From Candidatus Kerfeldbacteria bacterium (GTDB lineage: Bacteria > Patescibacteriota > Patescibacteriia > SBBC01 > CAIJZX01), in contig JACPSJ010000001.1 of NCBI GenBank assembly GCA_016193315.1, forward strand, positions 21,935 to 85,934: a stretch of DNA of 64,000 nucleotides, in the 5' to 3' direction. Below are positions 32,650 to 54,486 of the stretch, in pieces (the stretch's first letter is position 1; every line of letters begins with the position of its first letter). The notes under the pieces were generated by a model. The model did not search any database. It saw nothing but the letters and a program-made list of their open reading frames with translations, and had not been told where the DNA came from. Both the position numbers and the translations under genes were made by a program.

Positions 32650-33140
32650 TCAGACCGCGGGCACGTCAGTGCCCCGGTTTTTTGTCGATTCGCTGGGCGC
32701 CGATTGCCAGGCGCGTCTCGCCGCGAGCGCGGTTCCAAACAAAAAAATTGAAATCCCAGCTGAGATGAGGCAGTAGAAACAATAAGCTTTCAACACGAAT
32801 GCTTGCAGCCAGAGTAGATACAGGCTAAAGAGGAACCCCACCACGGTCAGAAGCATCAGGATCCGTAGCCACCGGACCTGTCCAGTATCCAGAACCATGA
32901 TGCTGAGAACGACAATGACCAGGTAGTAGCCCGCGCCCAGGAGCGAAATCGGAACCGGGCCGATGGTAGCGTAGACGCTATTGGTCACTACGTCGCAGCC
33001 GGTGGTGACCAGGCAGGGGATTGGCCCGTGCGTTAACTTCTCGACCGTCAGGAATGTGGCGTCGGCAAAGCCAAGCACGCCCAGGACGAGAAAGACAATG
33101 ACCCAGGTTTTTGGTTGACGCGCCGCCAGACCGTTAGTCA
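32650..33140 (-). CDS. vitamin K epoxide reductase (VKOR) family protein
   Basis: 4 TM helices, loop Cys pair CLVTTGC and active-site CFYC in TM4. Proposed GTG start at 33140 overlaps the TAA of the upstream DsbA-like ORF (gtgactaa). Confidence 0.7.
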
Positions 33141-34272
33141 CATCCCGTTCCCAAGCCCCCGACGCAGTTCTCGGTCGGCGGTTGACCGCGCTCCGGGCAC
33201 TTCTCCGAGTAGATACAGGCTTTGTCCGTGACGTTGGCCACCTGATCTTGGGTTTCGGCCGGCGTGTAGGTGCCAAAGAGAACAAGAATCCTGTCCAGGT
33301 CGTTCGGCTGATAGGCGCCAAACTGTGTATTCGCTTGGCCATTGACGAACAGTTGAAGTTTCTGGTCGCCGCTGGTGCATTTGTCCTGGCCGGTGTCGAG
33401 TTTCAAACATTGCGCGGTCAAGCCCATGCCGAAGGAGGTCAAGAGATCACTGAGGCTGACGTCAGCGGCGTGGATGTGCACCACCTCGCCATTGCCGTCG
33501 TGGAAATGGATGCCGGGGTGGAGGTGGTTGGCTTCGGTGGCTTGGAATTTATCCTGGGAGAAGTCGATGGCTTGACCATCGACGACCAGGCGAAAATCAA
33601 AGTGGTTGTGCACGGTGGCCGGGCTGGTGTTTGTCAACGGCCGCTTAGCAATTGCTTCTTCAATCAGCTTCTGGAAGTCTTCCAGACTGCGCGGGTTCTG
33701 AAGACGTTCGCCGTTGAGAAAGAAGGTCGGTGTACCGTTGACTTGGGCGCGGCGGCCGCTGGCGGCGTCGGTATCGACGACACTCGATACGGCGGTAGAA
33801 TCCAGATCAAGAGATCGTGCATCGGCCAGAACGCATCCTGTTTGGCCGCGGCCTCGGAGGCTTCGGCCGAGGCTTCAGCGTTTAGATGCGACTGGGTCAG
33901 CGGGAAGTGGCGGTAGGCGAGGCCAAGCCGGTCACCGAACTTGTCCGTCAATGATTGCAGGACCGATTCGTAGGCGGCGCAGGCCGGACACTGGAAGTCG
34001 CCGTATTCGATCAGAATCGCTGGTGCCTGGGCTGAACCACGAACATGATCAGTGGCTTTGATGGCATCAACCGATGAGTTAGTGTTGTTATCCGGTTGGC
34101 CCTTGGCCAAGTAGACGAGGCCCCAGACGATGAGGCCTAACCCAAGAATCGTCCCCCCCCAAGTGAGGATGCGCCGCGGGGCCACCGGTTTCTTGACCGA
34201 CTCATTGGTCGGCAACAGTCCTTGCCGGCGTAACTCGCGACGCTGCTTCTTGGTCAAATGTTGGTCGTCCAT
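33134..34272 (-). pseudogene. DsbA-family thiol:disulfide oxidoreductase with an N-terminal TM anchor and a C-terminal Cys-rich extension, interrupted by a frameshift near 33760..33810
   Basis: Upstream ORF: TM anchor, then FQCPAC...FWPMHDLL (DsbA-like). A different frame continues with ...RRAQVNGTPTFFLNGERLQNPRSLEDFQKLIEEAI... (classic DsbA C-terminal motif) into ORF 33134..33637. Confidence 0.5.
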
Positions 34273-34291
34273 AGGTGAACGGTTAGGTTAC

Positions 34292-34501
34292 TCAAGTGTC
34301 GTCTGGCGCGCTATATTTCTCTGGATCGTCGAGGAATTGTCGAAAGCAATCGGCGGAGTGAAAATAATACGTGGTTTGGTGGTAGTCATATGTCTGAGCC
34401 GCTTGTCGAGGGTCGAGGGCGACATCACAAACGGGATCAACAACCGAGCCGATGGATGCGTCGTCGACTTCTGTCGATGCTGCATATGGACCAATGACCA
34501 C
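34292..34501 (-). CDS. YHS-domain small metal-binding protein
   Basis: DPVCDVALDPRQAAQTYDYHQTTYYFHSADCFRQFLDDPEKY fits the YHS motif (DPVCxM...YYFCS..C...F..nPekY). Confidence 0.6.
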   Translation of the reverse strand: MVIGPYAASTEVDDASIGSVVDPVCDVALDPRQAAQTYDYHQTTYYFHSADCFRQFLDDPEKYSAPDDT

Positions 34502-34519
34502 GGCGATAGGCAGGTGCTG

Positions 34520-35458
34520 TTATTGGCACACCGGCGGCGATTCGTAACTGACCGATTCATAGGTTAGGCCCAGACTAGCGATTAAGCCAGCTTTTTCTAA
34601 CTCGCCATCGCACTTATGATCGCCCGAAGGTCGTTTCCCAACGTTCCCGACGCAGTAGTACTGCATTTCGGTGCCGGTCCAGGGCCAATACTGGTCTCCG
34701 CACATGACCAGTGGACCGTCATCCGGCCAAAATCCTCCTCCGGCACAGTTACAGCAAGTCCCATAATAGGTGCTATTTGACGAGAAGGAATGACTAGTTT
34801 CAGTGGTGTTGCCATTTGGGGAGCGGTAGCGGCGCAATTGACCCTTAATTGCTTTGCTGGAGTTCAAGAACGCTCGGCTGCCGCTTTTTTCCAGTTCAAT
34901 CTGAATGACATAGTGTTGGAAGTTGTCGAGTTCGCCGCTCACCAGATAGTGCCAGTGCTGCCGGTGCCAAGTGCTGCTCGGCCCACCCTCATATCTGGGC
35001 GTACCCGGAATTATTTTGTTAACAATCGGGTCATCGGGGATGGAACCGATAAGGTAGGGCTGTAAGATATCTTCCAACTGTTTCCATCCGCTCGGTAAGT
35101 CGCCCCCGGAGGCGGAAGAGATACACTCGGTATGAGGGTAAGTACCGTGGGCCGTATAGTACCGTTCGAGAGCCAGCTGAATCTCGGCCGCATCGGCTGC
35201 CCGCTGGGCATTCCTCGCTCGCACCCGCGCGCCGGAGGCGTAGTTGATGCCGATCAGGCTAATAATGCCGAGCACGCCGATGGTGATGACTATTTCGATC
35301 AAGGTGAAACCGAAAATTCGCCGTACTTTCTTGGTCGGAAGGTGTGGGGTTTGTAGAAGGTTGGACGGAGCCCGGCGGCTCGACCGGGCGACTGGGGGTG
35401 AAGCGGTTATTGCCGGCCGGGTGGCGGTGGGCTTAGGGTCTCGTGGTGTCACTAGCAA
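34520..35458 (-). CDS. prepilin-type N-terminal domain protein with a Cys-rich C-terminal domain
   Basis: ...KKVRRIFG|[16 protein letters not shown] prepilin motif. The C-terminus has a CCNC...C...C...C cluster. Start unclear: the conceptual leader is ~49 aa and the ORF overlaps the copA 3' end. Confidence 0.6.
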
Positions 35459-37868
35459 GGCGGAAACGTTTTAGCCGCAGTGAGTTTAGCACGACGAAGA
35501 GCGACGAGCCAGCCATGGCGCCGGAAGCGATGATCGGGCTGAGCAACAGATGAAACGCCGGGTACAGGACACCAGCGGCGATCGGCAGGCCGAGAATATT
35601 GTAGATGAATGCCCAGAAGAGATTCTGCTTGATATTCCGGAGCGTAGCTTTTGATAGGCGGATGGCGGTTACCACCTGACGGAGGTCATTGCCGACGATG
35701 GTGATATCCGACGCTTCCCGCGCCACGTCCGTGCCCGAGCCCATGGCCATGCCGACATCGGCTTGGGCCAGAGCTGGTGCATCATTGACGCCATCGCCGA
35801 CCATGGCCACGCGGTGTCCAGCAGCCTGGAGTTCTTTGACCTTGGCCGCTTTGTCGCCCGGCAGAATATTGGCCAGCACCCGATCGCGGTCAATGCCGAC
35901 TAGCTGAGCGATGCGGGCGGCCGTCACTTCGTGGTCGCCGGTGATCATGAAGACGGTTAGCCCGAGGCGACGTAATTGCGCGATGGCCGCCTGGCTGGTT
36001 GGCTTGATTTTGTCGCCGACGCCAATCAGCCCAGCCGTGTCTGCCTCAACCGCCACCATGATCGGCGTCAACCCACGCCTGGTGTAGGCTTGATGGTCGA
36101 ATCGGTCACCCGTAGTGAAAACGCCGAGGTTGTGCACCAGCCGTGGGGAACCGACAATCACTCGCTGTCCATTGATCACACCACTGACTCCTTGTCCGGG
36201 ATGGTTGTTGAAACCCACGACCGGCTGGAGAGTTAAACCCCGCTTCTTGGCTTCGGCCACGATCGCTTTGGCCATCGGGTGCTCGCTTTTTGCTTCGACT
36301 GAGGCGGCGTACTGCAGCGTGTAGTCTCGCCCGACGACATCGATCACGGCCATCTGCCCGCTGGTGACGGTGCCGGTCTTGTCCAGCACGATCGTGTCGA
36401 CCCGCTGAAGCAATTCCAAAGCCTCGGCATCGCGCACCAGCACGCCTTGTTCAGCGCCGCGACCAACACCAATCATAACCGCCGTCGGCGTGGCTAAGCC
36501 AAGGGCGCAGGGGCAGGCAATGATCAGCACCGTGACCGCGGCGATCAAGCTGAAGTTCAGGGCCAGGACGCCAGCCGGCGGGAAAATCATCCAGACGGTA
36601 AACGCCACCAGCGCGATGGCGATGACAATCGGCACAAAAACTCCAGAAATCTTGTCGGCCAAACGCTGAATTGGAGCTTGCGAGCTCTGGGCCTCCTCCA
36701 CCAGCTGGATGATCTGTGACAACATCGTTTGCTTCCCGACCTTCGTGGCGCGGAAGGTGAAGCTGCCGTGAGTATTGATGGTACTGCCGTAGACGATACT
36801 GCCCGGACTTTTCTCCCGCGGCAGGCTTTCGCCAGTGACCATCGCCTCGTCAACCGCCGACTGCCCGTCGACCACCTCGCCATCAACGGCTATTTTTTCA
36901 CCCGGCCGGACGACGATCACATCGCCCACCACGACTTGGTCAAGCGGTACTTCTCGTTCTTGCCCATGGCGGATAACGCGCGCCACTTTGGCGGCCAATT
37001 GGGCCAGTTTGCGGATCGCTTCATTGGCGCCGGCCTTAGCCCTGGCTTCAAGATACTTACCGAGCAGAATGAGCGTGATGATGACGACGGTCACGTCAAA
37101 GTAGGTGGCTGGTTGCTGCCCACTGCCGGCAAAAGCCGCTGGCCAGACCACTGCGACCAGGCTGAAAAAGTATGCGGCGCTGGTGCCGAGAGCGATGAGC
37201 GTATCCATGTTCGCTTGCCAGAAGCGCAGCGATTTCCAGGTGCTGACGAAAAACTGCGATCCAGCCCAGAAGAGGACCGGCGTGGCCAGAAGAAGTTGAA
37301 TCGGTCGAATGGTTGATTCGGGAGCGATGGTTGCTCCGAACAACATCAATGCGTCCGGCAGCATGACCATGATCGAAGTAACCACCCCGAACCTCAACTT
37401 GCGTTTTAAGATAAGGAGTTCTTCCTGTCGCAACATCCGGGCGTGATCGTGGACGCTGTGTTCCATTGAGCCGGTTTCACCGGTGTGTTCGTGGGCCGAT
37501 GGTTCGTGTTCGTCATGGTGGTCGTGGGCGGCCGCGGCTCCTCCCCTGCCCGACCGCTCGGCCATGAGCTCGCGGCCGAATGGGGGGAGGTGTCCCGAGC
37601 TTCGTCGAGGGGCGGAGGGGTGGGAGCCGCGGCCGCCCTCAATAACGGCCGTGTATCCCAGCTTGTCGATTTGCTCGGCGATCCGTGTTGGTGAGCATTG
37701 CTGTGAATCGAAAGTCACCCGACCCTGCTCGGTGGCGTAATTGACGTTAACCTCAGCCACGCCTGGTAGCTTTTTGACCACCCGCTCAATGTTCTTGGCG
37801 CACGAAGCACAGTGCATGCCGACGATGGGAAAACGAAGGCTGGTGGTCATACCCTGGTCACTGAACAA
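35433..37868 (-). CDS. copA: copper-translocating P1B-type ATPase
   Basis: N-terminal HMA ([12 protein letters not shown]), His-rich stretch, CPC in the TM region, [15 protein letters not shown]. Confidence 0.9.
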
Positions 37869-38859
37869 TGTTCACCGGCTGACCGTGCTCAAAAGCCTCG
37901 ATGTTCTTTATCGTTGTGTCTAGAATGCGCTGGAGCGCCTCGCCGGAGTTAAAGGCGTTGTGTGGTGTGATGATCACTTTCGGGTGGTTGAGGAGCAGGT
38001 GATCGGCCAAGACCGTCTTGAGGTCACACTTCGTCTGGAAAACCTTTGACAGCAACTCCCGCTCTTCCTTGATGGTGCATTCTTCTTCCAAAACATCTAG
38101 GCCGACGCCAGCCAGGTGTCCTTCGCCCAACACCTTCAAGAGTGCCTGCGTATCAATCAGTTGACCACGGGCGGTGTTGATCAGCCAGGCAGTCGGCTTC
38201 ATCAACCGCAATCGTGCTTCGTTGAGGAGATGCTGATTGTCCGGCGTGGCTGGCGCGTGGAGGGAAACGACGTCGCTCCGTCGCAACAGATCGTCCAGCG
38301 GGACGTACTGGAATTCAAGCCGTCGGGCCTGCTCTTGATTCGGGCGTGGGTCATAAGCGATGACCGACATTTCCAGCCCCCGCCCCATTTTGATCAGCCG
38401 TTGACCGATCCGACCGGCACCGACCACGCCCATGGTTTTACCGGCCAAGTCCACGCCACGCAGGTCGTCGAGACGAAAATCGCCATGCTGAGTTCGGACC
38501 ACGCTGGGGATGATTTTTCTCGACAGGGCGAGGAGCAGGGCCAAAGCATGTTCAGCCACAGTGTTCTCGCCGTACGACGGCACGTTGCAAACGGTGATGC
38601 CGTGGCTGTGGCAGGCGGCCAAGTCAATGTGGTCGTACCCGGTCGACATGGTGGCGATCAGCCTCAGTGCCGGGTAGCGGTCGAGGACGTCTTTGGTGAT
38701 CGGGCTGTAGATAAAGATGGCCAACACGTCGGGTTGCCCGATATCACCGGCTTCATCAAGATGCTTGGTGGAAAACTGCCCGTTGGGGAAAACCCGCCGT
38801 AGATAATCGATTTCCCATTGTTCCAGCTCGACCGCCGCCAGGCGCATGGTTTGATTCAT
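37858..38859 (-). CDS. D-isomer-specific 2-hydroxyacid dehydrogenase family protein
   Basis: NAD-binding [12 protein letters not shown], catalytic R/E/H region (NTARGQLID...PHNAF). Confidence 0.85.
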
Positions 38860-39131
38860 AGTCGGTCAAAAACCTGCATTAGTTCAGCGATCGTTTTTTC
38901 GGCCGCCCCGCCTCTGGTGTCCCGCATGTCCCGGGCGACGCAGGTACGGAGGTGATGCTGCAGCACTTGCTCGTCAAACTTTCGCAGCGCCTGCTGGATG
39001 GCCCGCGATTGGTGGATGATGTCGATGCAGTAGGCGCCTTCATCGAGCATGCGGCGAACTTTCCGCAGGTGTCCCTCGACGATGGCCAGACGGTGAGCCG
39101 TGGTTTTTCGCTTATCTTGGAGGGTTTTCAT
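38856..39131 (-). CDS. csoR: CsoR/RcnR-family metal-sensing transcriptional repressor
   Basis: HRLAIVEGHLRKVRRMLDEGAYCIDIIHQSRAIQQAL...HL (W-X-Y-Z Cys/His positions of the CsoR family); 4-bp overlap with the dehydrogenase gene. Confidence 0.75.
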   Translation of the reverse strand: MKTLQDKRKTTAHRLAIVEGHLRKVRRMLDEGAYCIDIIHQSRAIQQALRKFDEQVLQHHLRTCVARDMRDTRGGAAEKTIAELMQVFDRL

Positions 39132-39216: not shown

Positions 39217-39332
39217 TAACAGTCCACAGGCCGGGGCACAATCCCCTCTATCTACGGACCTACTTCGCGAGGTTTTTGCTTGTCGCTTGACATTGAAATA
39301 GCGGCTGGTGTAGGGTGTGTTTACAACCGAAT

Positions 39333-39510
39333 ACGCATCAAGAGAGGGTGATAGCGCACGCTCAACGTGCCGCGGGTGTACTGGACCCGCCAAGCGCCCC
39401 CACAACCTACCTCAAGCTTGTCGAGAGGCAAGGTGCGAACCCAGCCCTGTCCGGCGGAGGGACGTAGTACGTCCCGGAGCCGGATCCGGCTCGGCCGGAA
39501 AAGGGACAGA
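39333..39510 (+). promoter_or_regulatory. SAM-I (S-box) riboswitch-like element, variant with insertions (upstream copy)
   Basis: P1 acgcatc...gatgc; core ATCAAGAGAGGGTGA...ACTGGaCCCG...AACC...GGTGCGAAccCAGCC...GGACAGATG; resembles the RF00162 consensus. Confidence 0.4.
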
Positions 39511-39575
39511 TGCAAAGAATCTCTTTGCAGTCCGTCCTGAACAGGGGCGGTTGTTTCATGCACATTGACAATTGA

Positions 39576-39683
39576 ATAACATCAAGAGCGAGTGCTAGGG
39601 TCCTGGCCCAGTGATCACTCCCCCAACCAATTCCGCTATCCAGCGGAAGAACGGTGGGACTTCCAGCCTGAAATGGACAGATG
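39576..39683 (+). promoter_or_regulatory. SAM-I (S-box) riboswitch (downstream copy)
   Basis: aacATCAAGAGcGAGtGCTAGGGtCCTGGCCCAgTGAtCACtCcCCCAACC..TTCCGC..GCGGAA..GGTGGGActTCCAGCC..GGacAGATGtt; P1 aacatc/gatgtt, P3 ttccgc/gcggaa; 68 nt upstream of the ATG at 39752. Confidence 0.6.
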
Positions 39684-39751
39684 TTGTATTCGAACTGCAG
39701 CCGCCTTTTCGGGCGGTTGTTTTGTCCTGCTGGCACCAAAAGGAGCAAACT

Positions 39752-40579
39752 ATGCCATCGAAAGTAGAGAAGCAAGACCGCCACGCGAAAGAAGTATCGG
39801 CCATCGTGGCTGGGGCGCGTGAAGAGCTGGAACGCGCCAGCCAAACGCTCCAGCGCATGGTCGAGTTCGTTCACCAGCCGTTGTTCCTCCAATTCCGCAA
39901 CCGGGCCGCCCAGATGATCGCCACCGCTCACCCTAAACTGGTGACGGCCATGCAGATCATCGAAGCGGCAGTCGAACAGGTGCAGGTGACCGGCAAGCTG
40001 GCGCCGCACAATCCGTGGCCCGGGCCGTGGCCGGAAACGTGGGACTGCCTACGCTTGCCGACCGGCGCGGTCGACTACGCGAACATCGTGTGCGCCAACT
40101 ACCTGACCCGGCTTGAGGGCGACCTCGAGTATCACGAGGAAGGCTGGATGTACGCACTGCTGCCCTGCCTGCAATTCGCTCACGATCGGTTGGTTGCCGT
40201 TCGCGGAGAATTCCTCAGCCAGTTCGGCGAACCGTTTGATCGGGCGGCCGTGGATAGGCAGTACGACCGAGTCCCCCGGGTTCGCTTCGAGCACGTAGCC
40301 GACGTGCTGCGGGAGTGCGATGAGCGATCCCAGGGGCAGGCGCTCAGGGACTGGCTCAAGCGCCATGCCAACACGGATGTCACGCTAGCCGGCGGCCACG
40401 GCGTCCGGTTCATGCTTTGGGACCAGGGCGAAGAAATTATTCCCATGTATTACCTGGACCACGAGAAGCGGCCTGGTCGGAGCGATTGGAAGCATTGGCG
40501 GGACGCGATCAAACTGGTCATTGCCCGCCGGTCTCCGGCGCGACCGGACAATCCACAGTCGTGGCAGGAATTCTTCTGA
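39752..40579 (+). CDS. hypothetical protein (276 aa) downstream of the SAM riboswitches
   Basis: AAAGGAG 6 nt upstream of the ATG at 39752; no recognisable motif (Trp/His-rich). Confidence 0.5.
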   Translation: MPSKVEKQDRHAKEVSAIVAGAREELERASQTLQRMVEFVHQPLFLQFRNRAAQMIATAHPKLVTAMQIIEAAVEQVQVTGKLAPHNPWPGPWPETWDCLRLPTGAVDYANIVCANYLTRLEGDLEYHEEGWMYALLPCLQFAHDRLVAVRGEFLSQFGEPFDRAAVDRQYDRVPRVRFEHVADVLRECDERSQGQALRDWLKRHANTDVTLAGGHGVRFMLWDQGEEIIPMYYLDHEKRPGRSDWKHWRDAIKLVIARRSPARPDNPQSWQEFF

Positions 40580-40963
40580 AAGGAGGTGAACCAATGACCA
40601 CTCGTGCGCAGCGGCAAAAACTCCGCAATCGACTTGAGGATGTCCTGGAAATTCGCCAGGAGGTCCGGCGCTGTCTCCGTTGCCGGGGGAGGGTTATCTC
40701 CCTTATCAGGAGGCGAGAGCGCTGCTTGGCGACGAGCTAGGCAAAATCGGTTGGGGCTGGCTCGATCTCCTCCACCTCCGTCGTGAACTTCAGACTGAGC
40801 GACGGTTGTGGATGGAGTGCCAGGGGACCAGCGACCCTCGCTGGATTGCCTGGCAGAACGGGGAATCCTTCTCTGCCCCGATGGGCGTGGAGGTGTAGTT
40901 CCTGTTCAACCCGCCGCCCCGAGCGAAGTCGAGGGGCGGCGGCGCGCCAATCAAGGAGCCATC

Positions 40964-41428
40964 ATGAACCAGAGCACAGACGAATTCAAAGTCTTCCGTT
41001 TGGAGAAGTTCATTCCCACCCATTGCCCGAAGTGCGCCCATCCGTTCCGATCGAACGCGGATCGCGACTTCCTGTTCGACCACCGCCTCCTGCATCCGCA
41101 GGAAACGCCGGCCGAGTGGCTAGCCGTGTTTCCGGAAGCGGCTGCGACCGAGGGGCTGCACGCCGAGCCGATCTGGTGCGGCCGATGCCAGAACATCACC
41201 TTGCGCGTCGTGACCGCCGTTCGACATGTGACCACCGAGGCGGAGGCGGTCGAGCTCGAATCCCTCGGTTACGCCAACCGGCGGGTGCTCGAGTGCTCCG
41301 GGGAAAGTTTCTCGCAGCTACCGGAGTACACGTTAGCCGTTCTGGTAGATCCAGAAACAGAGCGCGGCCCGATTACGTTCTTTCCGAAGGCCATGCATCG
41401 ACCTGGCCCACCCCGCCCCTCACAGTGA
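40964..41428 (+). CDS. hypothetical zinc-ribbon protein (154 aa)
   Basis: AAGGAG plus ATG at 40964; CPKC...CGRC; followed by a hairpin and T-run. Confidence 0.45.
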   Translation: MNQSTDEFKVFRLEKFIPTHCPKCAHPFRSNADRDFLFDHRLLHPQETPAEWLAVFPEAAATEGLHAEPIWCGRCQNITLRVVTAVRHVTTEAEAVELESLGYANRRVLECSGESFSQLPEYTLAVLVDPETERGPITFFPKAMHRPGPPRPSQ

Positions 41429-41550
41429 GGCGGGTTTTGTTTTGGCCGACGCTCAGCTCCGGAGATCAGCGTTGACACCTCTACACGCTGTCTGTTACAG
41501 TAGCTTCCCCTTGCAATATCTCGGATGGGTTGACCGTCCGTGAGGAGGAT

Positions 41551-41769
41551 ACGGTGGAAAAGCGAACCTTGATCGTCGTCAAGCCGCGGCCATGTCCACA
41601 CTGCAAGGCGCCGGCCGGGTATGGCGACACCGACTACCGGTGTCCAAGTTGCGGCCAAGGATTCTGCAGCCTGTGTTACAAGACGGATCCTGACGGGCCG
41701 GGAGATTACGTCTTCTGTCCCAGCTGCAAAGCCACGCTGTACTTTCCGATAACGCTCCTGACCGCTTAG
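41551..41769 (+). CDS. small double zinc-ribbon protein (~72 aa)
   Basis: Four CxxC motifs (CPHC, CPSC, CSLC, CPSC); GAGGAGG before the GTG at 41551 (the ORF could also start at 41530). Confidence 0.45.
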   Translation, partial: TVEKRTLIVVKPRPCPHCKAPAGYGDTDYRCPSCGQGFCSLCYKTDPDGPGDYVFCPSCKATLYFPITLLTA

Positions 41770-41770
41770 C

Positions 41771-41800
41771 CGCTCCTCGTCGAGCGGTTTTTTGTATGGC
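41771..41800 (+). terminator. intrinsic terminator
   Basis: ccgctcctcgtcgagcgg followed by ttttttgt. Confidence 0.5.
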
Positions 41801-41820: not shown

Positions 41821-42027
41821 CTAAACTAATTCCACCGGGTAACCCTCCGAGTCGAGCGCGGTCTTGAGAGCCGCCGATTGGACGCTGTCGTCATGCTCAA
41901 CCGTCAACGTTTTCTGCCGGACATTGACTTCAGCCTTTTTCACTCCCGGCGTATCTTCGCAGATGCCTTCCATCACCAAAGCGCAGGAGGCGCAGTCGTA
42001 CTTGAGAACCTTGAATGTCGTCGTCAT
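41821..42027 (-). CDS. copZ: heavy-metal-associated (HMA) copper chaperone, CopZ-like
   Basis: MTTTFKVLKYDCASCALVMEGICEDTPGVKKAEVNV, a ferredoxin-like HMA fold with a CxxC metal site; the start overlaps the upstream stop (TAATG). Confidence 0.7.
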   Translation of the reverse strand: MTTTFKVLKYDCASCALVMEGICEDTPGVKKAEVNVRQKTLTVEHDDSVQSAALKTALDSEGYPVELV

Positions 42028-43025
42028 TAGACCGCCTGGATCGTCCCGCGGAACATGCCCATGCCGCAACTAAACGTATACTCGCCCGGCGCGGGGAAGA
42101 TCGCACTTACCAGCGTGGTACCGGTTCGCGGCAGGGATCGTTCAATCTGGAGCTTCGGGATGCGAAAGAGCTGGGTGCAGCCGGCGTTGTTGTTCGTTAC
42201 CAAACTCAACTCGACAGGTTGGCCGGCTGGGACAGTAACGATGTTCGGTTCGTAGCCATTGTTAAGAACATTGATAGTTAGACTAGTTTCCCCGGCAGTC
42301 GAAGTCTGAGTGGTGCCGTAGGCCAAGGCTCGGAAGGCGGCGATTTCGTTTTGAATGGAGTAAGGCGAATCGACCATCACCAGCACGCCGTTGAGCGTGT
42401 AGAGTCCTAACGCCACCACCACCGCGGCGGCGGCATAGGCCAACCGCCGTTGCAACAATGCTGTGCCCTTAGCCAGAATCCCGACGGTAAAGAACAACGG
42501 CGCCGTCCCCAGGACAAAAGCGAGCATCACGCTCGCGCCTTGCCAAGGGCTGGCCGTGGCGATGGCCGCCACCTCCATCGCCTGCGTCGTCCCGCAGGGG
42601 ATGAGCACCGTCAGCAGACCGAGGATGGCGGGCGCGATCAGGAGTTGACTCTTGGCGCTCCGCCGAATCAGACGGCGGGCCGAGGCCGGCGGATGAATGG
42701 TTAACCATGGTAACCAGTGGGGGAAGATCAATCGAACGCCGGCTACCAACATAAACAAACCGGCTAACGTCTGCAGCCAAATACGAACGGTGGTGGTCAA
42801 TTGGATGGTATCGCCGAGCCAGCCGAGGCCGAATCCAAGGACCGTATGGATAATCAGCTTGGCCACCAGGAAAGCGGTTACCGGCAAGATCAACAGTTGC
42901 CATCGCTGCAGGTGGGGTTCCTCTCGGCGGCGGGCCAAAAGTCCGAGTAGCAGCCCGCCCTGGACGGCCAGGCAGGTCAGGCCCCCGGTACTGAGGCCAG
43001 TCAAGAAAGCAGTCAGCGGCGTCAT
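42027..43025 (-). CDS. membrane protein: CcdA/DsbD-like six-TM core fused to a C-terminal cupredoxin-like domain
   Basis: TM1 FLTGLSTGGLTCLAV and TM4 LIPCGTTQ resemble the two Cys-containing helices of CcdA/DsbD. The C-terminal ~90 aa ends in GEYTFSCGMGMFRGTIQAV, a Cupredoxin_1-like motif. Confidence 0.6.
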   Translation of the reverse strand: MTPLTAFLTGLSTGGLTCLAVQGGLLLGLLARRREEPHLQRWQLLILPVTAFLVAKLIIHTVLGFGLGWLGDTIQLTTTVRIWLQTLAGLFMLVAGVRLIFPHWLPWLTIHPPASARRLIRRSAKSQLLIAPAILGLLTVLIPCGTTQAMEVAAIATASPWQGASVMLAFVLGTAPLFFTVGILAKGTALLQRRLAYAAAAVVVALGLYTLNGVLVMVDSPYSIQNEIAAFRALAYGTTQTSTAGETSLTINVLNNGYEPNIVTVPAGQPVELSLVTNNNAGCTQLFRIPKLQIERSLPRTGTTLVSAIFPAPGEYTFSCGMGMFRGTIQAV

Positions 43026-46315: not shown

Positions 46316-46387
46316 TCGGTCCCTAGCTCAATGGTAGAGCACTCGTCTTATACACGAGCGGTTGCAGGTTCGAGTCCTGCGGGACCG
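46316..46387 (+). tRNA. tRNA with anticodon TAT (would read AUA; Ile-like), no encoded CCA
   Basis: Cloverleaf: acceptor CGGTCCC/GGGACCG, D-arm GCTC..GAGC, anticodon stem CTCGT/ACGAG, loop CTTATAC, T-arm GCAGG TTCGAGT CCTGC. Confidence 0.6.
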
Positions 46388-46548
46388 AGTTTGGGCGGGA
46401 CAGGTACACGAGCGGTCGCGGGACTGCCCCGAAAACGAGGAACTACGTGACAAGTTGTACGGGACTCGAATCCTGGCGGGCCGACCATGGAAAGGGTGTA
46501 TCGCCTCAGCGCTTAAGGCACCCGGTGTGAAAGATTCAACCGAAAACT

Positions 46549-47574
46549 ATGAAAGCAGTTTTCTTTGAGCGGCCTGGCGGGCTGGAAGTTCTTCGGTACG
46601 GAGATTTCGATGATCCGATTCCGAATGAAGGCGAAGCTTTGGTTCGAGTCAAAGCTGGTGGCCTGAATCGACTGGATATTTGGCTGCGCGAAGACCGGGA
46701 CAACATTCGGAACATACCGATGCCTCACATCCCCGGGTCAGATGTATCGGGCACGGTGGAGAAGATCGTAGGTCAGGCGGGTTTCCGAATCGGTCAGGAC
46801 GTGGTGCTGAATCCGGCCATTCCGTGCGGCCTCTGTCCGCGTTGCAAAAAAGGACAGCCGTGCGAGCTGGTGAAGATATTCGGCGTCAAGAATCAAGGTG
46901 GGTACGCTGAGTACGTGGTAGCACCAATCGCGCAGCTGTATCCAAAACCGCCCCACCTTTCTTTCATCGAAGCTGCGGCATTTCCCCTGACGATGCTGAC
47001 CGCTTGGCACATGCTGGCCGGTCGGGCTCACGTGCAGCCGGGTGAAACGGTCTTTATCTGGGGCGCCTCCGGTGGCCTAGGATCGGCGGCCATTCCTGTA
47101 GCTAGATATCTGGGGGCCAGGATTATCGCCGCGGCCAAGTCTGAAGAACAGGCCCGCCGCATCCGTGAGTTGGGCGTGGATGAAACCGTGGTCTATACGA
47201 GGGATGACGTTGATCAAAAAGTAAAGAGTCTGACACATGGCCAAGGAGTCGATGTCGTCTTTGAAAGTGTCGGTCAGAAGACTTGGCCGACAACGCTGGC
47301 CATGCTTAGACCGTTCGGCCGCGTGGTGATTGCCGGCACCACCACTGGTGACGTGGGGACGCAAGATTTGAGTGATTTGTACGTTCGCCAACTGTCTATG
47401 CTAGGCGCCAGGATGGGCACCAAAGAAGAATTCGAAACGGTCTTGAGATTAATCGCCAGCGGTCACTTGAAACCGATTATTGATCGGACCTTCCCACTCA
47501 GCCAAGCGGCTGAAGCCCAACGAAGGATGGTAGACGGAAAACACATAGGGAAGATCGTTCTAGAAATTCCGTAA
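46549..47574 (+). CDS. zinc-type alcohol dehydrogenase / quinone oxidoreductase (MDR family)
   Basis: GroES-like N-terminus, Rossmann motif FIWGASGGLGSAAI. Confidence 0.85.
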   Translation: MKAVFFERPGGLEVLRYGDFDDPIPNEGEALVRVKAGGLNRLDIWLREDRDNIRNIPMPHIPGSDVSGTVEKIVGQAGFRIGQDVVLNPAIPCGLCPRCKKGQPCELVKIFGVKNQGGYAEYVVAPIAQLYPKPPHLSFIEAAAFPLTMLTAWHMLAGRAHVQPGETVFIWGASGGLGSAAIPVARYLGARIIAAAKSEEQARRIRELGVDETVVYTRDDVDQKVKSLTHGQGVDVVFESVGQKTWPTTLAMLRPFGRVVIAGTTTGDVGTQDLSDLYVRQLSMLGARMGTKEEFETVLRLIASGHLKPIIDRTFPLSQAAEAQRRMVDGKHIGKIVLEIP

Positions 47575-47686
47575 GTCAGGTCTGGCGGGACGCCGGTGAC
47601 CTCGATCCACGTGATTCGGGGCGAAAAGCCTAGCTCGCCTGCCAAGGTCGCTGACAGTGTGATAAACTATAACGAGATCAATTATC

Positions 47687-47938
47687 ATGACCCTGCCGGT
47701 GACGACCAAAACCAAGGTTACCTCGACACTCACCCCGGTCATCATTCTGACGACCGCGGGCAGCCTGCTGGAGCTCCAGACAGTTGGGGTGGCGATGTTG
47801 ATGGCTGTGTCAGCGTTGTTTATTCTCCTGCTGGCGCCGGCACCATCACTGTTCGGCTTGATCTGGCTCTTCAGCGCCGTGCTGATGGTCATCCGCGCGG
47901 CCCAGGGTTTCTTCGCCTGGCAGGCTGGGCTACGCTGA
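47687..47938 (+). CDS. small hydrophobic protein (2 TM)
   Basis: ORF only. Confidence 0.35.
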   Translation: MTLPVTTKTKVTSTLTPVIILTTAGSLLELQTVGVAMLMAVSALFILLLAPAPSLFGLIWLFSAVLMVIRAAQGFFAWQAGLR

Positions 47939-48032
47939 CATTGACGTCCCTGTAACTCGCCGCGACGAATAGAATAGCAGGTTTCACTGCACTGTCGAAT
48001 ACCACTTGAGCCGCCCAAAGGAGGTGGGGTTG

Positions 48033-48290
48033 ATGCCGCTACAGCTCCTTGAGACGTCAGGTCGCGAGGCCGGAGTGCTGATGCCCGACGATGAAGCCTT
48101 CACGCAACTAGGCGTGATGATCAGGCGACGGACTCGTTGGGTCCTGACCAGCTACGCACCGCAACGGGTCAGAGTCGGTGGTCAGCCGGCACCAATCGGC
48201 GTGGCGCGCGGCCTGCGGTCGCAAGACCTGGTCATCATTGGCGATCTGCCGTTCCGGTTTCGTCCGGTCAAGCCGGGCTCAAGACATTAA
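48033..48290 (+). CDS. hypothetical small protein
   Basis: AAGGAGG before the ATG at 48033. Confidence 0.35.
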   Translation: MPLQLLETSGREAGVLMPDDEAFTQLGVMIRRRTRWVLTSYAPQRVRVGGQPAPIGVARGLRSQDLVIIGDLPFRFRPVKPGSRH

Positions 48291-48504
48291 TCTTAGCCCG
48301 GTATTTCTTACTTGAACTATTGGGGTCGGCGTGCTACCCTCCATCGCGCGAGTTTCCTGTACTTTCTGGTTTACGAGTTCGTAGCTCTCGCCCGCTAGCG
48401 CCTTCGGCGCAAGCCGTGGCGAGCGGGCAGCCCGGTTAGACCCGCCCGCCGGCTTCGCCCGATTCTGTCAAATTATCGTCTTGGTTTAAAGAAAAGCTGC
48501 TGTT

Positions 48505-48581
48505 GGGTTCGTAGCTCAGTTGGTTAGAGCGCCACATTGACATTGTGGAGGTCAGAGGTTCAAATCCTCTCGGACCCACCA
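48505..48581 (+). tRNA. tRNA-Val (GAC), CCA encoded
   Basis: Cloverleaf GGGTTCG..anticodon loop TTGACAT..TTCAAAT..CGGACCCACCA. Confidence 0.85.
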
Positions 48582-48617
48582 AGAGCTTTTCTTACGCCGG
48601 CGAAGCGGGCCGGGGCG

Positions 48618-48665
48618 CTACGTTGACATCGTGAAGGCCAGAGGTTCAAATCCGGGCGTGGTACG
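48618..48665 (+). repeat. degenerate partial copy of the tRNA-Val anticodon/T-arm region
   Basis: cgttgacatcgtgaaggccagaggttcaaatcc versus tRNA cattgacattgtggaggtcagaggttcaaatcc; the T-stem is not complementary. Confidence 0.3.
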
Positions 48666-48690
48666 TAGAACGTGCCGCGCGGACCGGAGG

Positions 48691-49590
48691 ATGGTGGGAG
48701 ATGAGTGGTATACTGTGGACGTGGAACAGGAGGATTTGGGCCGGAATCCCGAACGTCGTGAACGAGAATTCCAGTTTCGAATTGGCCAGCGCACCAGGCC
48801 GAGCGCCCGACACCCGGAGCGAAATGAGGACGCCATACTGGTTGACCAGGAAGCTGGCGTGTTTGCGGTTTTTGATGGCGTCAGTGGCCTGGAAAACGGA
48901 GCTGGCGGATCGGCCGCCCAAATGGCCAAAGAACACATCGCCCGACTGGTTCGAGAAATGCCCAGGCAGATGTCGCTGGTCGATGTCCGAGATTACTTGG
49001 TGTTAGCGGCACACCACACCAACGAAACACTGTGGAAACATCAACGTGAACGCAACCTCGAGGGCCTTGAAACGACGATGACGCTCGGCTGTATCGTTGA
49101 GGAACATGGTTCACGCTGTCTCCTGACCGTTCATGTCGGGGATAGCCGAGCGTATGTATTAAGAGGCCGGTCAACTCTGGAAACGGTCACTCTTGATGAC
49201 AGCTTGATTCGGAGCATGGGTCTCGATGAGGCCGGAATGAAACAGGTGCAGAAGAGGCTCAGCAACGCCCAAACTGCCGCCGGGCTGTCGCCCGAAGAAA
49301 GACGCGCGTTTAGATTTCGGAACCTAATCACTCAGGGACTCGGTTATGAATCGATCGAACCACACACGACCGCTACCGAGATTCAGCCCGGTGATCGCGT
49401 CCTGCTTACGACCGACGGTATCCACGATAATCTGATTCAGGACGAAATGGAAGGAACTCTTAAATCGTCAGCCGACGTCCAGCAATCCGCCGACAACATG
49501 GTTGAGGCCGCCGCGCAACGCAGCGCGGAAAAAGGCGATCGTGCTAACCCGGACGATATGACGACGTTGGTGGTTGAGGTGGTGGAATAA
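48691..49590 (+). CDS. PP2C-family Ser/Thr protein phosphatase
   Basis: PP2C motifs EDAILVDQEAGVFAVFDGVSG, TMTLGCIVEEHG, HVGDSRAYV, LLTTDGIHDNL. Confidence 0.8.
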   Translation: MVGDEWYTVDVEQEDLGRNPERREREFQFRIGQRTRPSARHPERNEDAILVDQEAGVFAVFDGVSGLENGAGGSAAQMAKEHIARLVREMPRQMSLVDVRDYLVLAAHHTNETLWKHQRERNLEGLETTMTLGCIVEEHGSRCLLTVHVGDSRAYVLRGRSTLETVTLDDSLIRSMGLDEAGMKQVQKRLSNAQTAAGLSPEERRAFRFRNLITQGLGYESIEPHTTATEIQPGDRVLLTTDGIHDNLIQDEMEGTLKSSADVQQSADNMVEAAAQRSAEKGDRANPDDMTTLVVEVVE

Positions 49591-49630
49591 CAATCACCCC
49601 CCAACGGGGGGGGTGATTGCGTTGATGGTT

Positions 49631-52600: not shown

Positions 52601-52852
52601 GGTGGCCGCGTTGGCCACCGCTGGTACGAACAACGCCGTCAGTGAACTGATGTTAATCATGGTGGCGATGGCCACCAAGATATTGAAAACTTTCCACGTG
52701 CGCCGGCGCGCGGCTTTCCGGCGGAGCGTGGCCCAGCCAATGATTGTGCCACTGATCATGAGAAAAACCCTGGTTAGCTTATGAAAACGGCCAAGGGGTT
52801 TTCTACTACCCCCCATAGCCGGTGCATGTTTTTGACCATGTTTCATTACCAT
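49631..52852 (-). CDS. large surface protein: signal/TM N-terminus, vWA domain, DUF11-type repeats, C-terminal LAETG sortase-type sorting signal
   Basis: vWA MIDAS region GLDVGLIVDASDSV...VIATDGSPN; repeated Thr/Val-rich Ig-like repeats; C-terminus LAETGVSASDYVLFSLGVAALTAGYVLLRRNRRE (LPXTG-like motif, TM helix, basic tail). Confidence 0.8.
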   Translation of the reverse strand: MVMKHGQKHAPAMGGSRKPLGRFHKLTRVFLMISGTIIGWATLRRKAARRRTWKVFNILVAIATMINISSLTALFVPAVANAATTSWKAPTSNANIHTIVSNPSKAYAADGEDAVFDHDGQEKYGGFNISIPSGAVVTGLEVQIKAHRTSGSGELDLDVYVSADNPAGTSGWEDRRDADNFGADYTTLIVGGPNDEWGRDQWPATDLDNDSFAVRLRASFPGSLQTPNRVGVDSVAVRVNYLMPTANPGLGQSCGLDVGLIVDASDSVSSSDMTQIKEAMTTFVNAFDDTPTVFSLASFATSSNLEQGFPMTAAQAAAAINALPSSGDGHTNWDAGLAQSGDSFDPRPNPNLMVIATDGSPNRWGYPAAEPFDWNDGLEKAIERANTIKQSGTRIVVIGIGEDDTDPEFDSGDSSWNNYKLSAISGPAIATSPDAITTNTDVIKVADFDGIGDALTGYARALCPGSIRVNKQVNSDFDQQFEGGNDQANQLGFTWAVDGGSANAMGNTVVANPGSHSVNEKLAAGYGFVGWFFSDREASCDDAESFEGTTLPIMVDVEPFQNTAITLCNRLLPTASLTVNKNVDQNGDGDLEDASDVVGATNWTWDLNGGNQNFATGSTRTISPGSTTVREDVKAGYEFVGVECRVNGDPLDVDQDTSVTFRASPGAEYQCTFTNRKLVTTIDLDKTGPATIDAGDNLTYTLDWSVDGNTPATQAVITDPIPSDTTFVSADHGGAFADGTVTWDLGTKNPGDRGRVAVTVKVKSPLATGTILENTATFDSDETDAVEDTATTTVKSAPALRVSKSNNAPAFVNPNSAITYTVSVSNASSATAAAEDVTLKDVLPANLTFNDGGGTAKDFVIGDLAPGKSKTFTYVVNIDPGATAGTYTNTATADATNTDPVSDTSDIVVRVPQVLGVATPELSLEKTADPTVTNPGKTVTYTLVVSNHGDGQARNVVVTDKLPAGFSYPDGTSTKEWTYDLIAPGDAKTITYQVTVGQDVKAGNYVNTAVATADDVDPITAQATITVKVPQVLGLAETGVSASDYVLFSLGVAALTAGYVLLRRNRRELGLES

Positions 52853-53001
52853 GTTGATCCAGAGGTGTCAAATCGGTCCAAGATCTCTTGATCTGGTTGT
52901 GGACAGACCCTGTTGGTGATTCTGTCGAACGCCTACTTTAGGGGCCTCTACGCTGCATTAGGTATGCACAAGTTATCCACCATTTTTCATCACCGAAATA
53001 T

Positions 53002-54054: not shown

Positions 54055-54083
54055 TTGACCGCAATGGTCTACCGCGCTAGACT
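54055..54083 (+). promoter_or_regulatory. promoter candidate for rplS
   Basis: TTGACC, 17 nt, TAGACT. Confidence 0.35.
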
Positions 54084-54483: not shown

Positions 54484-54486
54484 CCC

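What the first reader, a model, noticed from the sequence alone, without database searches (positions are those of the whole stretch)
39333..39752. Tandem SAM-I (S-box) riboswitch-like elements upstream of a gene of unknown function
39576..39683 matches the SAM-I consensus closely. P1 is aacatc/gatgtt, the core is ATCAAGAG..GCTAGGGtCCTGGCCCAgTGA..CCAACC, P3 is ttccgc/gcggaa, then GGTGGGActTCCAGCC and GGacAGATG. A longer upstream copy (39333..39510) has the same P1 and P4/3' core (ATCAAGAGAGGGTGA...GGTGCGAAccCAGCC...GGACAGATG) but carries insertions in P2 and P4. The regulated ORF (39752..40579, AAAGGAG RBS) has no recognisable methionine or SAM metabolism motif. It is Trp/His-rich and could be an uncharacterised SAM-dependent enzyme or transporter-associated protein.
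Basis: partly seen in the sequence, partly recalled or inferred. Interest (0 to 1): 0.7.

Follow-up and report, generated by a model that had tools for sequence, protein, structure and literature searches.

The report
Tandem SAM-I riboswitches, unknown zinc-ribbon operon
Two divergent SAM-sensing (SAM-I class) riboswitches sit one after the other in front of a three-gene operon in a Candidatus Kerfeldbacteria genome, and in related contigs the partner that stays with the riboswitch is a small zinc-ribbon protein of unknown function rather than any known methionine or SAM gene.

Summary
Both stretches are SAM-I-class aptamers, and each is followed by its own terminator-like hairpin.

- **Copy 2 (39576-39687):** scores 42.5 bits against Rfam RF00162, just under the gathering score of 44.4 (E 2.6e-6 on the whole window).
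- **Copy 1 (39332-39516):** Rfam does not detect it. A SAM-I covariance model built without the window aligns it end to end (32.8 bits, E 2.5e-7). With its two insertions removed it is 84% identical to positional orthologues that Rfam does recognise.

The interpretation needs correcting. The first ORF (275 aa) is a strain-specific ORFan. The conserved cargo is the third gene (40964-41428), a 154-aa CxxC...CxxC protein with about 12 relatives in 5.8 billion protein clusters. Nine of ten relatives with upstream DNA carry a SAM-I-like leader: three tandem, six single.

Tandem SAM-I riboswitches are already known (164 examples; PMC9481103). Three things are new here:
- the gene association;
- the compact, mostly sub-threshold lineage;
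- a recurrent extra hairpin in P2, seen four times with unrelated sequences.

SAM binding and switching are inferred, not shown.

The parts
39287..39316 (+). Promoter-like site: -35 TTGACA (39287-39292), 18-nt spacer, -10 TAGGGT (39311-39316)
   Evidence: Read from the sequence. The consensus scanner does not call it because the -10 is weak. A TTGAC-N17/18-TAnnnT site lies at the same distance from the aptamer in L179, L181, L182, L185, L186, L188 and L189. Inferred promoter, not shown.
39323..39331 (+). Conserved 5' leader motif ACAACCGAA, immediately 5' of P1
   Evidence: ACAAC(C/U)GAA precedes P1 in most first or single units of the family (ACAAUCG in L179 and L181a). It also precedes P1 in the metK leader of L011. 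It is complementary to the terminator 3' arm CGGUUGU and pairs with it in the unconstrained MFE of leader 1. Function unknown.
39332..39516 (+). Aptamer 1: a SAM-I-class four-way junction. P1 is GCAUC/GAUGC (39335-39339 / 39509-39513). P2a is GGGUG/CGCCC. P2b is GCGGGU/ACCCGC with loop GUACUGG. The core motifs CAACC, GGUG and CCAGC are present. P4 is CCCU/AGGG.
   Evidence: R1 gives 32.8 bits, E 2.5e-7, full model length. There is no Rfam hit. With the inserts removed it is 83.8% identical to L181a and 83.3% to L189, which RF00162 scores at 35.7 and 43.3 bits. Helices were checked.
39354..39373 (+). 20-nt insertion in P2 of aptamer 1 that forms an extra hairpin (GCACG-CUCAA-CGUGC). It turns the P2 internal-loop (K-turn) region into a predicted three-way junction.
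   Evidence: Delimited by alignment to L181a and folded on its own. Analogous hairpins with unrelated sequence are inserted at the same site in L181b, L186 and L190.
39449..39501 (+). 53-nt branched extension of P4 in aptamer 1 (two hairpins on a stem)
   Evidence: Relatives have a minimal P4 of 3-4 bp with a 3-6 nt loop.
39503..39538 (+). Candidate antiterminator of unit 1. GGGAC..GA + UGCAAAGA-AUC-UCUUUGCA + UC..GUCCU pairs the P4-3'/P1-3' strands with the 5' arm of terminator 1.
   Evidence: Present in the unconstrained MFE (-104.1 kcal/mol), against -86.9 kcal/mol for the enforced aptamer-plus-terminator fold. A comparable P4-3' to terminator-5' pairing appears in the nascent folds of L181a, L182, L186 and L189. 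Inferred.
39532..39556 (+). Terminator-like hairpin 1 (CCGUCCUG-AAC-AGGGGCGG) followed by UUGUUU
   Evidence: It is homologous to the family terminator GCCGCCC-AAGUA-GGGCGG-UUGUUU.
39576..39687 (+). Aptamer 2: a compact SAM-I aptamer. P1 is AUAACAUC/GAUGUUGU, extendable to 12 bp. P2 is GAGUG..GGG UCCUGG CCC..CACUC. P3 is UUCCGC/GCGGAA. P4 is minimal (CC-UGAAAU-GG).
   Evidence: RF00162 gives 42.5 bits, E 2.6e-6 on the window. R1 gives 56.8 bits. The MFE is a four-way junction. It is 81-82% identical to the second units of L181 and L188.
39697..39726 (+). Terminator-like hairpin 2 (GCAGCCGCCU-UUUC-GGGCGGUUGU) followed by UUUGUCC
   Evidence: Pair probability is about 1 in the ensemble of the full leader. 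It is orthologous to the terminators after L181b and L188b.
39739..39745 (+). RBS AAAGGAG of the first ORF
39752..40579 (+). ORFan, 275 aa, strain-specific, function unknown
   Evidence: The only match is itself. No Pfam or NCBIfam hit. Native codon usage. The AlphaFold2 model has pLDDT 40.
40594..40740 (+). 48-aa ORF with RBS AAAGGAGG. It may be a truncated relative of a small helical protein encoded between the leader and the 154-aa gene in L181, L182 and L188 (immediately upstream of it in L181 and L188).
   Evidence: The resemblance is weak, and its codon usage is not diagnostic.
40911..40943 (+). GC-rich hairpin (CCGCCGCCCC...GGGGCGGCGG) with no U tract, just 5' of the RBS of the 154-aa gene
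   Evidence: Comparable strong hairpins precede the homologues in L181, L182 and L184. No aptamer remnant lies here.
40964..41428 (+). 154-aa Cys-rich (C21xxC24...C72xxC75) Zn-ribbon protein: the conserved cargo of the riboswitch
   Evidence: 11 homologues at 44-71% identity, and nothing else, in 5.8e9 clusters. Alignment A2. No family, solved-structure or fold match. A SAM-I-like leader lies upstream in 9 of 10 loci.
41418..41440 (+). Weak terminator-like site at the end of the operon (CCUCACAGUGAGG + CGGGUUUUGU)

Best explanation
The 5' UTR running from about 39322 to 39751 carries two complete SAM-I-class riboswitches in series. Each is an aptamer followed by its own intrinsic-terminator-like hairpin. 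They lie in front of an operon of three genes: a 275-aa ORFan, a 48-aa ORF and a 154-aa Zn-ribbon protein.

Proposed mechanism (inferred): when SAM is abundant, it binds each aptamer and locks P1 and P4. This leaves the 5' arm of the downstream terminator free to form the terminator hairpin, so transcription stops before the operon. When SAM is scarce, the 3' strands of P4 and P1 in unit 1 pair with the terminator's 5' arm to form an antiterminator, and RNA polymerase reads through. Two independent OFF switches in series should give tighter repression and a steeper, 'pseudo-cooperative' response.

Shown here: homology of both aptamers to SAM-I, conservation of the core motifs that hold the ligand-contacting positions, covariation in the helices, terminator-like hairpins, and conservation of the leader in front of the Zn-ribbon gene family.

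Inferred: SAM as the ligand, the OFF logic, the antiterminator, and co-transcription of all three genes.
For: Aptamer identity:
- Copy 2 scores 42.5 bits against RF00162 over the full model, E 2.6e-6.
- R1, built without the window, scores copy 2 at 56.8 bits and copy 1 at 32.8 bits, E 2.5e-7.
- Copy 1 with its inserts removed is 84% identical to L181a. RF00162 recognises L181a at 35.7 bits, L189 at 43.3 bits and L188a at 49.0 bits.

Core conservation: AUCAAGAG, the L2 CUGG, CAACC, GGUG and the J3/4 CCAGC are present in all 12 family members (L186 has AUCACGAG) and in two metK-linked Patescibacteria SAM-I elements. By my own knowledge of the T. tengcongensis SAM-I structure, these motifs contain the positions that contact SAM (A6, U7, G11, C44, A45, U57, G58, A87, U88).

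Structure: on 13 sequences, 92.4% of cells are paired, against 34-50% with slid partners. 12 of 26 pairs change on both sides, and 0 of 500 shuffles reach this.

Expression platforms: a terminator-like hairpin follows each copy, and the family shares a conserved terminator. For leader 1 the antiterminated fold is 17 kcal/mol more stable than the aptamer-plus-terminator fold.

Selection: the leader is conserved upstream of the 154-aa family in 9 of 10 loci. It is tandem in three lineages, which share second-unit P1 and terminator sequences.

Precedent: 164 double SAM-I riboswitches have been reported (PMC9481103). SAM-I elements in other Patescibacteria control metK.
Against: - Neither window copy reaches Rfam's gathering score, and copy 1 gets no Rfam hit at all.
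- R1's training set was chosen with a pattern derived from copy 2, so its scores for both copies are somewhat favoured.
- Unit 2 has no recognisable antiterminator. Its P1 can extend to 12 bp, and terminator 2 forms with probability about 1 in every thermodynamic model. On paper it looks constitutively OFF.
- Copy 1 has only a 5-bp P1, an A.C mismatch at the base of P3, and no canonical K-turn.
- Copy 2's K-turn has U where the consensus has G.
- Both U tracts are short and interrupted (UUGUUU, UUUUGU).
- No gene in the operon has a known link to SAM or methionine.
- The 224-nt gap and strong hairpin before the 154-aa gene leave co-transcription unproven.
Confidence: 0.75

Rival explanations
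1. Only one unit is a working riboswitch. One possibility is that unit 1 switches while unit 2 is a degenerate duplicate whose terminator acts constitutively as an attenuator. The other is that unit 2 works and copy 1, loaded with insertions, no longer binds its ligand.
For: Unit 2 has no predicted antiterminator and a very stable P1. Copy 1 is invisible to Rfam, has a 5-bp P1, an A.C mismatch and a disrupted K-turn region.
Against: Both units keep every core motif. The second units of three lineages, whose 154-aa proteins are only 51-71% identical, are 81-82% identical to one another and keep the same terminator. First-unit orthologues include elements above Rfam's gathering score (L188a at 49 bits). 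The same A.C mismatch occurs in the metK-linked L011 element, which scores 62 bits. P2 hairpin insertions recur four times while always keeping the CUGG loop.
Confidence: 0.15
2. The aptamers are SAM-I-derived but now sense a different ligand (SAH, a SAM analogue or something else). That would explain the non-methionine gene context.
For: The cargo has no known SAM or methionine function. The lineage is divergent and mostly below Rfam's threshold. Changes of specificity within riboswitch classes are known; PMC6847200, listed, describes this for the guanine class.
Against: No position known to contact SAM differs from the consensus in any of the 12 family members. A related Patescibacteria element sharing the ACAACCGAA leader motif and the GGGUYCUGGCCC P2 loop controls metK.
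Confidence: 0.07
3. The similarity is a non-functional relic or a chance resemblance, and the operon is not riboswitch-controlled.
For: Both copies fall below Rfam's gathering score.
Against: E-values are 1e-6 to 1e-12 under two models. The composite patterns occur 0 times in 100 shuffles. There is covariation, and the leader is conserved in front of the same gene family in 9 of 10 loci.
Confidence: 0.03

Closest known systems
SAM-I (S-box) riboswitch, Rfam RF00162, clan CL00012
   Same: It has the same four-way junction P1-P4. The core motifs are the same (AUCAAGAG, CAACC, GGUG, CCAGC, GAU). The L2 CUGG and J3/4 CCAG remain complementary, as needed for the pseudoknot. A terminator-type expression platform follows each aptamer.
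   Different: Scores are at or below the gathering threshold. P3 is compact and P4 is minimal in the lineage. The K-turn deviates in copy 2, and in copy 1 it is replaced by a predicted three-way junction. P1 of copy 1 is only 5 bp. The downstream genes are not Met/SAM genes.
Tandem ('pseudo-cooperative') SAM-I riboswitches, 164 double and 1 triple examples (Sherlock et al. 2022, PMC9481103). Local examples: L052 Hathewaya massiliensis upstream of metNI, and the L095 metagenome contig.
   Same: Two complete SAM-I riboswitches sit in series on one leader, each with its own terminator.
   Different: The cargo here is a clade-specific Zn-ribbon operon rather than methionine transport or biosynthesis genes. 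The two units are strongly diverged from each other (about 70% identity once copy 1's inserts are removed), and one carries large insertions.
SAM-I riboswitches of other Patescibacteria upstream of metK (L011, Patescibacteria bacterium STD1_130; L013, Candidatus Saccharibacteria)
   Same: Same riboswitch class. L011 shares the 5' ACAACCGAA motif, the GGGUYCUGGCCC P2 loop and the GGACAGAU 3' junction.
   Different: Those elements are single, score 62 bits (above the gathering score) and control SAM synthetase. L011 uses a classical antiterminator in which the P1 3' strand pairs with the terminator 5' arm.
K-junction: a K-turn elaborated into a three-way junction, described for the Arabidopsis TPP riboswitch by Lilley's group (cited from my own knowledge, not checked here)
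   Same: An extra helix emerges from the non-bulged strand at the position of a K-turn-like internal loop.
   Different: This is only a secondary-structure prediction. The G.A pairs that define a K-turn are not evident in copy 1. I found no report of this feature in SAM-I.

Membership tests
SAM-I riboswitch (RF00162) | Score at or above Rfam's curated gathering threshold (44.4 bits) | tested here: not met
   Copy 2 scores 42.5 bits. Copy 1 has no hit at E<=10. Orthologues L188a and L188b pass at 49.0 and 51.1 bits.
SAM-I riboswitch (RF00162) | Four-way junction with helices P1-P4 in the canonical order, supported by covariation | tested here: met
   Both copies align over the full model. On the family alignment 92.4% of cells are paired, and 12 pairs have double changes.
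SAM-I riboswitch (RF00162) | Conserved core nucleotides that contact SAM (A6/U7, G11, C44-A45, U57-G58, A87/U88 in T. tengcongensis numbering; positions taken from my own knowledge) | tested here: met
   The motifs AUCAAGAG, CAACC, GGUG and GAU are identical in both copies and in all relatives except L186, which has AUCACGAG.
SAM-I riboswitch (RF00162) | Pseudoknot between the P2 loop and J3/4 | tested here: met
   CUGG in L2 and CCAG in J3/4 are present in both copies and in all relatives. The motifs are invariant, so this is complementarity without covariation.
SAM-I riboswitch (RF00162) | K-turn in P2 (3-nt bulge followed by tandem G.A pairs) | tested here: inconclusive
   In copy 2 the bulged strand AGU-GA is present, but the opposite strand has UA instead of GA. 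In copy 1 a hairpin is inserted at this site, giving a predicted three-way junction. The tertiary structure cannot be tested here.
SAM-I riboswitch (RF00162) | Selective binding of S-adenosylmethionine | not testable with these tools
   This needs in-line probing, ITC or equilibrium dialysis.
SAM-I riboswitch (RF00162) | Association with sulfur, methionine or SAM metabolism or transport genes | tested here: not met
   The operon genes have no Pfam or NCBIfam assignment. metK is not in the window. The rest of the 857-kb genome was not available.
Tandem complete riboswitches for one ligand (pseudo-cooperative type) | Two aptamers of the same class on one leader, each with its own expression platform | tested here: met
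   Aptamers at 39332-39516 and 39576-39687, with terminator-like sites at 39532-39550 and 39697-39720.
Tandem complete riboswitches for one ligand (pseudo-cooperative type) | Each unit switches independently in response to the ligand | tested here: inconclusive
   Unit 1 has a plausible antiterminator. No alternative to terminator 2 was found for unit 2.

The most novel reading that the evidence does not exclude
The 154-aa CxxC...CxxC Zn-ribbon protein, known only from about 12 contigs that include this Candidatus Kerfeldbacteria genome, carries out a previously unrecognised function tied to SAM or methionine supply. It could be, for example, a salvage or acquisition factor or a SAM-linked regulator in organisms with minimal metabolism. 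It is under the control of a dedicated compact SAM-I lineage in which the P2 K-turn has been converted repeatedly into a three-way junction.
Probability: 0.4. Interest if true: 0.65.

Novelty: new variant of a known kind. Interest (0 to 1): 0.5.

Why it matters
SAM riboswitch regulons have been reliable guides to genes of methionine and SAM metabolism. Here a SAM-I leader is conserved in front of a family with no sequence or fold relatives, in the window's Candidatus Kerfeldbacteria genome and a handful of related, taxonomically unassigned contigs. Candidate Phyla Radiation bacteria are thought to depend on hosts for most metabolites, so this points to a testable gene for how they manage SAM.

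The case also shows that standard Rfam thresholds miss most members of this compact lineage: only 2 of 12 reach the gathering score. In addition, it provides four natural, independent examples of a hairpin inserted at the P2 K-turn site. These are useful for asking what that structural element must do in SAM-I folding.

The tandem architecture itself is not new.

Tried and rejected
1. Rfam at gathering threshold found only tRNAs. A permissive search on copy 1 alone found nothing relevant.
2. Homologues of the 275-aa ORF: none, in two exhaustive searches. Contigs L001-L003 are the same strain. The single-sequence AlphaFold2 model had pLDDT 40, so no fold search was attempted with it.
3. metK in the window: absent.
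4. A metagenome scan for the shared leader motif TTTACAACCGAA...ATCAAGAG...GGTG returned 0 hits.
5. blastn of the whole leader against 175 fetched loci matched only the conserved core, so there were no close DNA relatives in those sets. The relatives came instead through the 154-aa protein.
6. Antiterminator for unit 2: constrained and nascent-transcript folds found none. I considered pairing of the terminator 2 5' arm with the terminator 1 3' arm, or with the P3 3' strand GGUGG, but have no support for either.
7. The long-range pairing of copy 1's P1-5' strand with copy 2's P1-3' strand is not conserved in L181, so I treat it as a by-product of paralogy.
8. Aptamer remnant between the 48-aa and 154-aa genes: none.
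10. Relatedness of the ORFs lying between leader and cargo across loci: none, except a weakly conserved small helical protein.
Full report
**1. The observation**

The quoted sequence features are all present. Rfam at its curated thresholds reports only seven tRNAs in the window. With E-value reporting, the downstream copy (39576-39687, + strand) matches RF00162 (SAM-I) over the whole model at 42.5 bits. That is 1.9 bits below the gathering score of 44.4. E is 2.4e-8 on 601 nt and 2.6e-6 on the whole window against all 4227 families. It is the only non-tRNA match in the window of any note. The upstream copy gets no Rfam match at E<=10, even when searched alone. Composite patterns describing each copy occur once in the window and never in 100 shuffles. 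Each copy is followed by a terminator-like hairpin: 39532-39550 + TTGTTT, and 39697-39720 + TTTTG.

**2. Is copy 1 a SAM-I aptamer?**

Rfam E-values are multiplied by 4227 families, so a weak score could have gone unreported. I therefore built an independent covariance model. A scan of one genome per species with a SAM-I pattern gave 55 loci. Forty-seven aptamers from these, with the window excluded, were aligned (A1). RNAalifold recovered P1, P2a, P2b, P3 and P4 with covariation, and model R1 was built from that.

On the window, with filters off, R1 scores copy 2 at 56.8 bits (E 1e-12). It scores copy 1 (39332-39516) at 32.8 bits (E 2.5e-7). The copy 1 alignment runs from model position 1 to 115, with local inserts of 45 nt in distal P2 and 53 nt in P4. 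One caveat: the training set was picked with a pattern taken from copy 2, which favours both copies somewhat.

The stronger argument comes from orthologues (section 4). With a 20-nt P2 insertion (39354-39373) removed and the 53-nt P4 interior (39449-39501) replaced by a GAAA loop, copy 1 is 83.8% identical to L181a, 83.3% to L189 and 81.4% to L179. Rfam's own model scores those three at 35.7, 43.3 and 41.8 bits, and the orthologue L188a at 49.0 bits, which is above threshold.

**3. Anatomy**

Both copies keep AUCAAGAG, CAACC, GGUG, CCAGC and GAU. They also keep CUGG in the P2 loop, which is complementary to CCAG in J3/4. From my own knowledge of the T. tengcongensis structure, these motifs hold the SAM-contacting nucleotides and the pseudoknot.

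- **Copy 2.** Its MFE is a four-way junction. It has a minimal P4 (CC-UGAAAU-GG). Its K-turn has UA on one strand where the consensus has GA.
- **Copy 1.** P1 is 5 bp (GCAUC/GAUGC). There is an A.C mismatch at the base of P3, and the same mismatch occurs in the metK-linked L011 element that scores 62 bits. P4 is branched. An extra hairpin (GCACG-CUCAA-CGUGC) makes P2 a predicted three-way junction.

**4. Surroundings and relatives**

The window comes from a Candidatus Kerfeldbacteria MAG, according to the name a source gives for the ORF.

The first ORF (39752-40579, 275 aa) has an AAAGGAG RBS and native codon usage. It has no homologue in 5.8e9 clusters or in 1.84e9 representatives scanned by HMMER, and no Pfam or NCBIfam family. 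It is a strain-specific ORFan.

The third gene (40964-41428, 154 aa, CxxC...CxxC) has ten homologues at 51-71% identity. A profile search adds one more at 44%. I fetched their contigs and searched them with R1 and with Rfam. A SAM-I-like element lies upstream of the family gene in 9 of 10 distinct loci that include upstream DNA:

- **Tandem:** the window, L181 and L188.
- **Single:** L179, L182/L183, L185, L186/L187, L189 and L190.
- **None:** L191.

In L185, L186/L187 and L190 no called ORF lies between the aptamer and the family gene, and only 60-80 nt separate them. L189 also has no intervening ORF, with a gap of about 250 nt. Elsewhere, unrelated ORFans lie between them. A weakly conserved small helical protein lies between leader and cargo in L181, L182 and L188, and the window's 48-aa ORF may be a truncated form of it.

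L181 and L182 also share the window's CsoR / 2-hydroxyacid dehydrogenase neighbourhood.

**5. Comparative support for the fold and for the tandem**

Thirteen elements were aligned to the model (A3). 92.4% of cells form standard pairs, against 34-50% when the partners are slid. 12 of 26 pairs show changes on both sides, and no shuffle out of 500 reaches any of these measures. The alignment was fitted to the model, which inflates the percentage paired somewhat.

The second units of the window, L181 and L188 share the P1 AUAACAUC/GAUGUUGU. They share the terminator GCAGCCGCC-UUUUY-GGGYGGYUG-UUUUGU, and they are 81-82% identical. The first units share (U)ACGCAUC or AAUACAUC, and a GCCGCCC...GGGCGGUUGUUU terminator. 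The duplication therefore predates the divergence of lineages whose cargo proteins are only 51-71% identical. That argues for selection on both units.

Extra hairpins of unrelated sequence are inserted at the same P2 site in window copy 1, L181b, L186 and L190. Each keeps the CUGG loop.

A TTGAC-N17/18-TAnnnT promoter-like site and an ACAACYGAA leader motif precede the first or single units.

**6. Mechanism**

For leader 1, the unconstrained MFE is -104.1 kcal/mol. In it, GGGAC..GA (the P4 and P1 3' strands) pairs with UC..GUCCU (the terminator 5' arm) around a small hairpin. The 5' ACAACCG pairs with the terminator 3' arm CGGUUGU. The enforced aptamer-plus-terminator fold is -86.9 kcal/mol. 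This is the classical S-box logic, in which the ligand must stabilise the aptamer for the terminator to form. A similar pairing of the P4-3' strand with the terminator 5' arm appears in nascent-transcript folds of several relatives.

For leader 2, I found no alternative to the terminator. P1 can extend to 12 bp, and terminator 2 has pair probability of about 1. Whether it switches kinetically cannot be decided by computation.

Tandem SAM-I riboswitches are a described architecture, with 164 double and one triple example, interpreted as pseudo-cooperative (PMC9481103). I also saw local examples: L052 in front of metNI, and L095.

**7. The cargo protein**

Alignment A2 shows invariant C21, C24, C72, C75 and C111, and motifs such as FRLEKxIPTHCPxC and WCGxCxNxTLR. 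The AlphaFold2 model built with this alignment has pLDDT 68, and 70-90 over much of residues 6-113. There is no significant match in any of these searches:

- Pfam: only sub-threshold Zn-ribbon hits.
- PDB by sequence profile.
- Foldseek against PDB: best E 0.5.

Its function is unknown. The only functional lead is the riboswitch itself.

**8. Comparison and verdict**

The elements work like SAM-I riboswitches and are homologous to them. They meet the structural and core-sequence criteria. They do not meet Rfam's score threshold or the usual gene association, and the K-turn criterion is unresolved. In other Patescibacteria the same class controls metK (L011 and L013).

I classify this as a new variant of a known kind. 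It is a compact, mostly sub-threshold SAM-I lineage, often tandem, with a recurrent P2 three-way junction, dedicated to a clade-specific Zn-ribbon operon. Interest is moderate (0.5). The architecture is known and ligand binding is untested, but the conserved link to an uncharacterised protein family in these reduced-genome bacteria is a concrete, testable lead.

Noticed in passing
L095:387-492 and 719-821 (the same locus reversed is L123): Two SAM-I-like elements lie in tandem upstream of a sigma-70-like 186-aa ORF (828-1388) in a metagenome contig. The second unit has UAUCCCGAG instead of AUCAAGAG, and its P1 3' strand overlaps the RBS. This is another non-methionine context for SAM-I-like RNAs.
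   Followed up: partly
L014, L016, L017, L027, L056, L057 (alignment A1, columns 14-50): SAM-I aptamers from Actinomycetota MAGs carry an extra GC-rich hairpin inserted between AUCAAGAG and P2. This is a different insertion site from the P2 hairpins of the Kerfeldbacteria-like lineage.
   Followed up: no
window 41472-41789: A separate small gene (41530-41769, 79 aa, several CxxC pairs) has its own good promoter-like site (TTGACA-18-TACAGT, 10 of 12 matches) and a terminator-like hairpin at 41768-41789. It lies directly after the riboswitch-controlled operon.
   Followed up: no
window 40911-40943; also L181:~4953-4980, L182:~4926-4954, L184:1-26: Strong GC hairpins without U tracts sit just upstream of the RBS of the 154-aa gene wherever other ORFs precede it. 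The window's hairpin (CCGCCGCCCC...GGGGCGGCGG) resembles the family terminator stem GCCGCCC...GGGCGG. It may be a relic of that terminator or an mRNA processing or stability element.
   Followed up: partly
window 39323-39331; L011, L179-L190 leaders; 5' UTRs of the 154-aa genes: The motif ACAAC(C/U)GAA lies at the presumed transcript 5' end, and a CACAAC motif recurs just before the cargo gene's RBS. Both are complementary to the conserved terminator 3' arm CGGUUGU. The motif is also present in the L011 metK leader, whose terminator lacks that arm, so its role is unexplained.
   Followed up: partly
window 32650-39131 and 42027-43025: A copper and redox homeostasis cluster flanks the operon. 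It includes a CsoR-type repressor, a D-2-hydroxyacid dehydrogenase, a CopA-like P-type ATPase, DsbA-like and VKOR proteins, and a DsbD_2-cupredoxin fusion. The CsoR / 2-Hacid_dh neighbourhood is syntenic in L181 and L182.
   Followed up: no
window 46317-61726: Seven tRNA genes are dispersed over about 15 kb (six on the + strand, one on the - strand).
   Followed up: no
L179:2728-3687 and L185:2807-3766: A XerC/D-type tyrosine recombinase gene lies divergently, immediately upstream of the riboswitch promoter, in two relatives. The ORFs between riboswitch and cargo differ completely between lineages, which suggests this spot accumulates lineage-specific genes.
   Followed up: no
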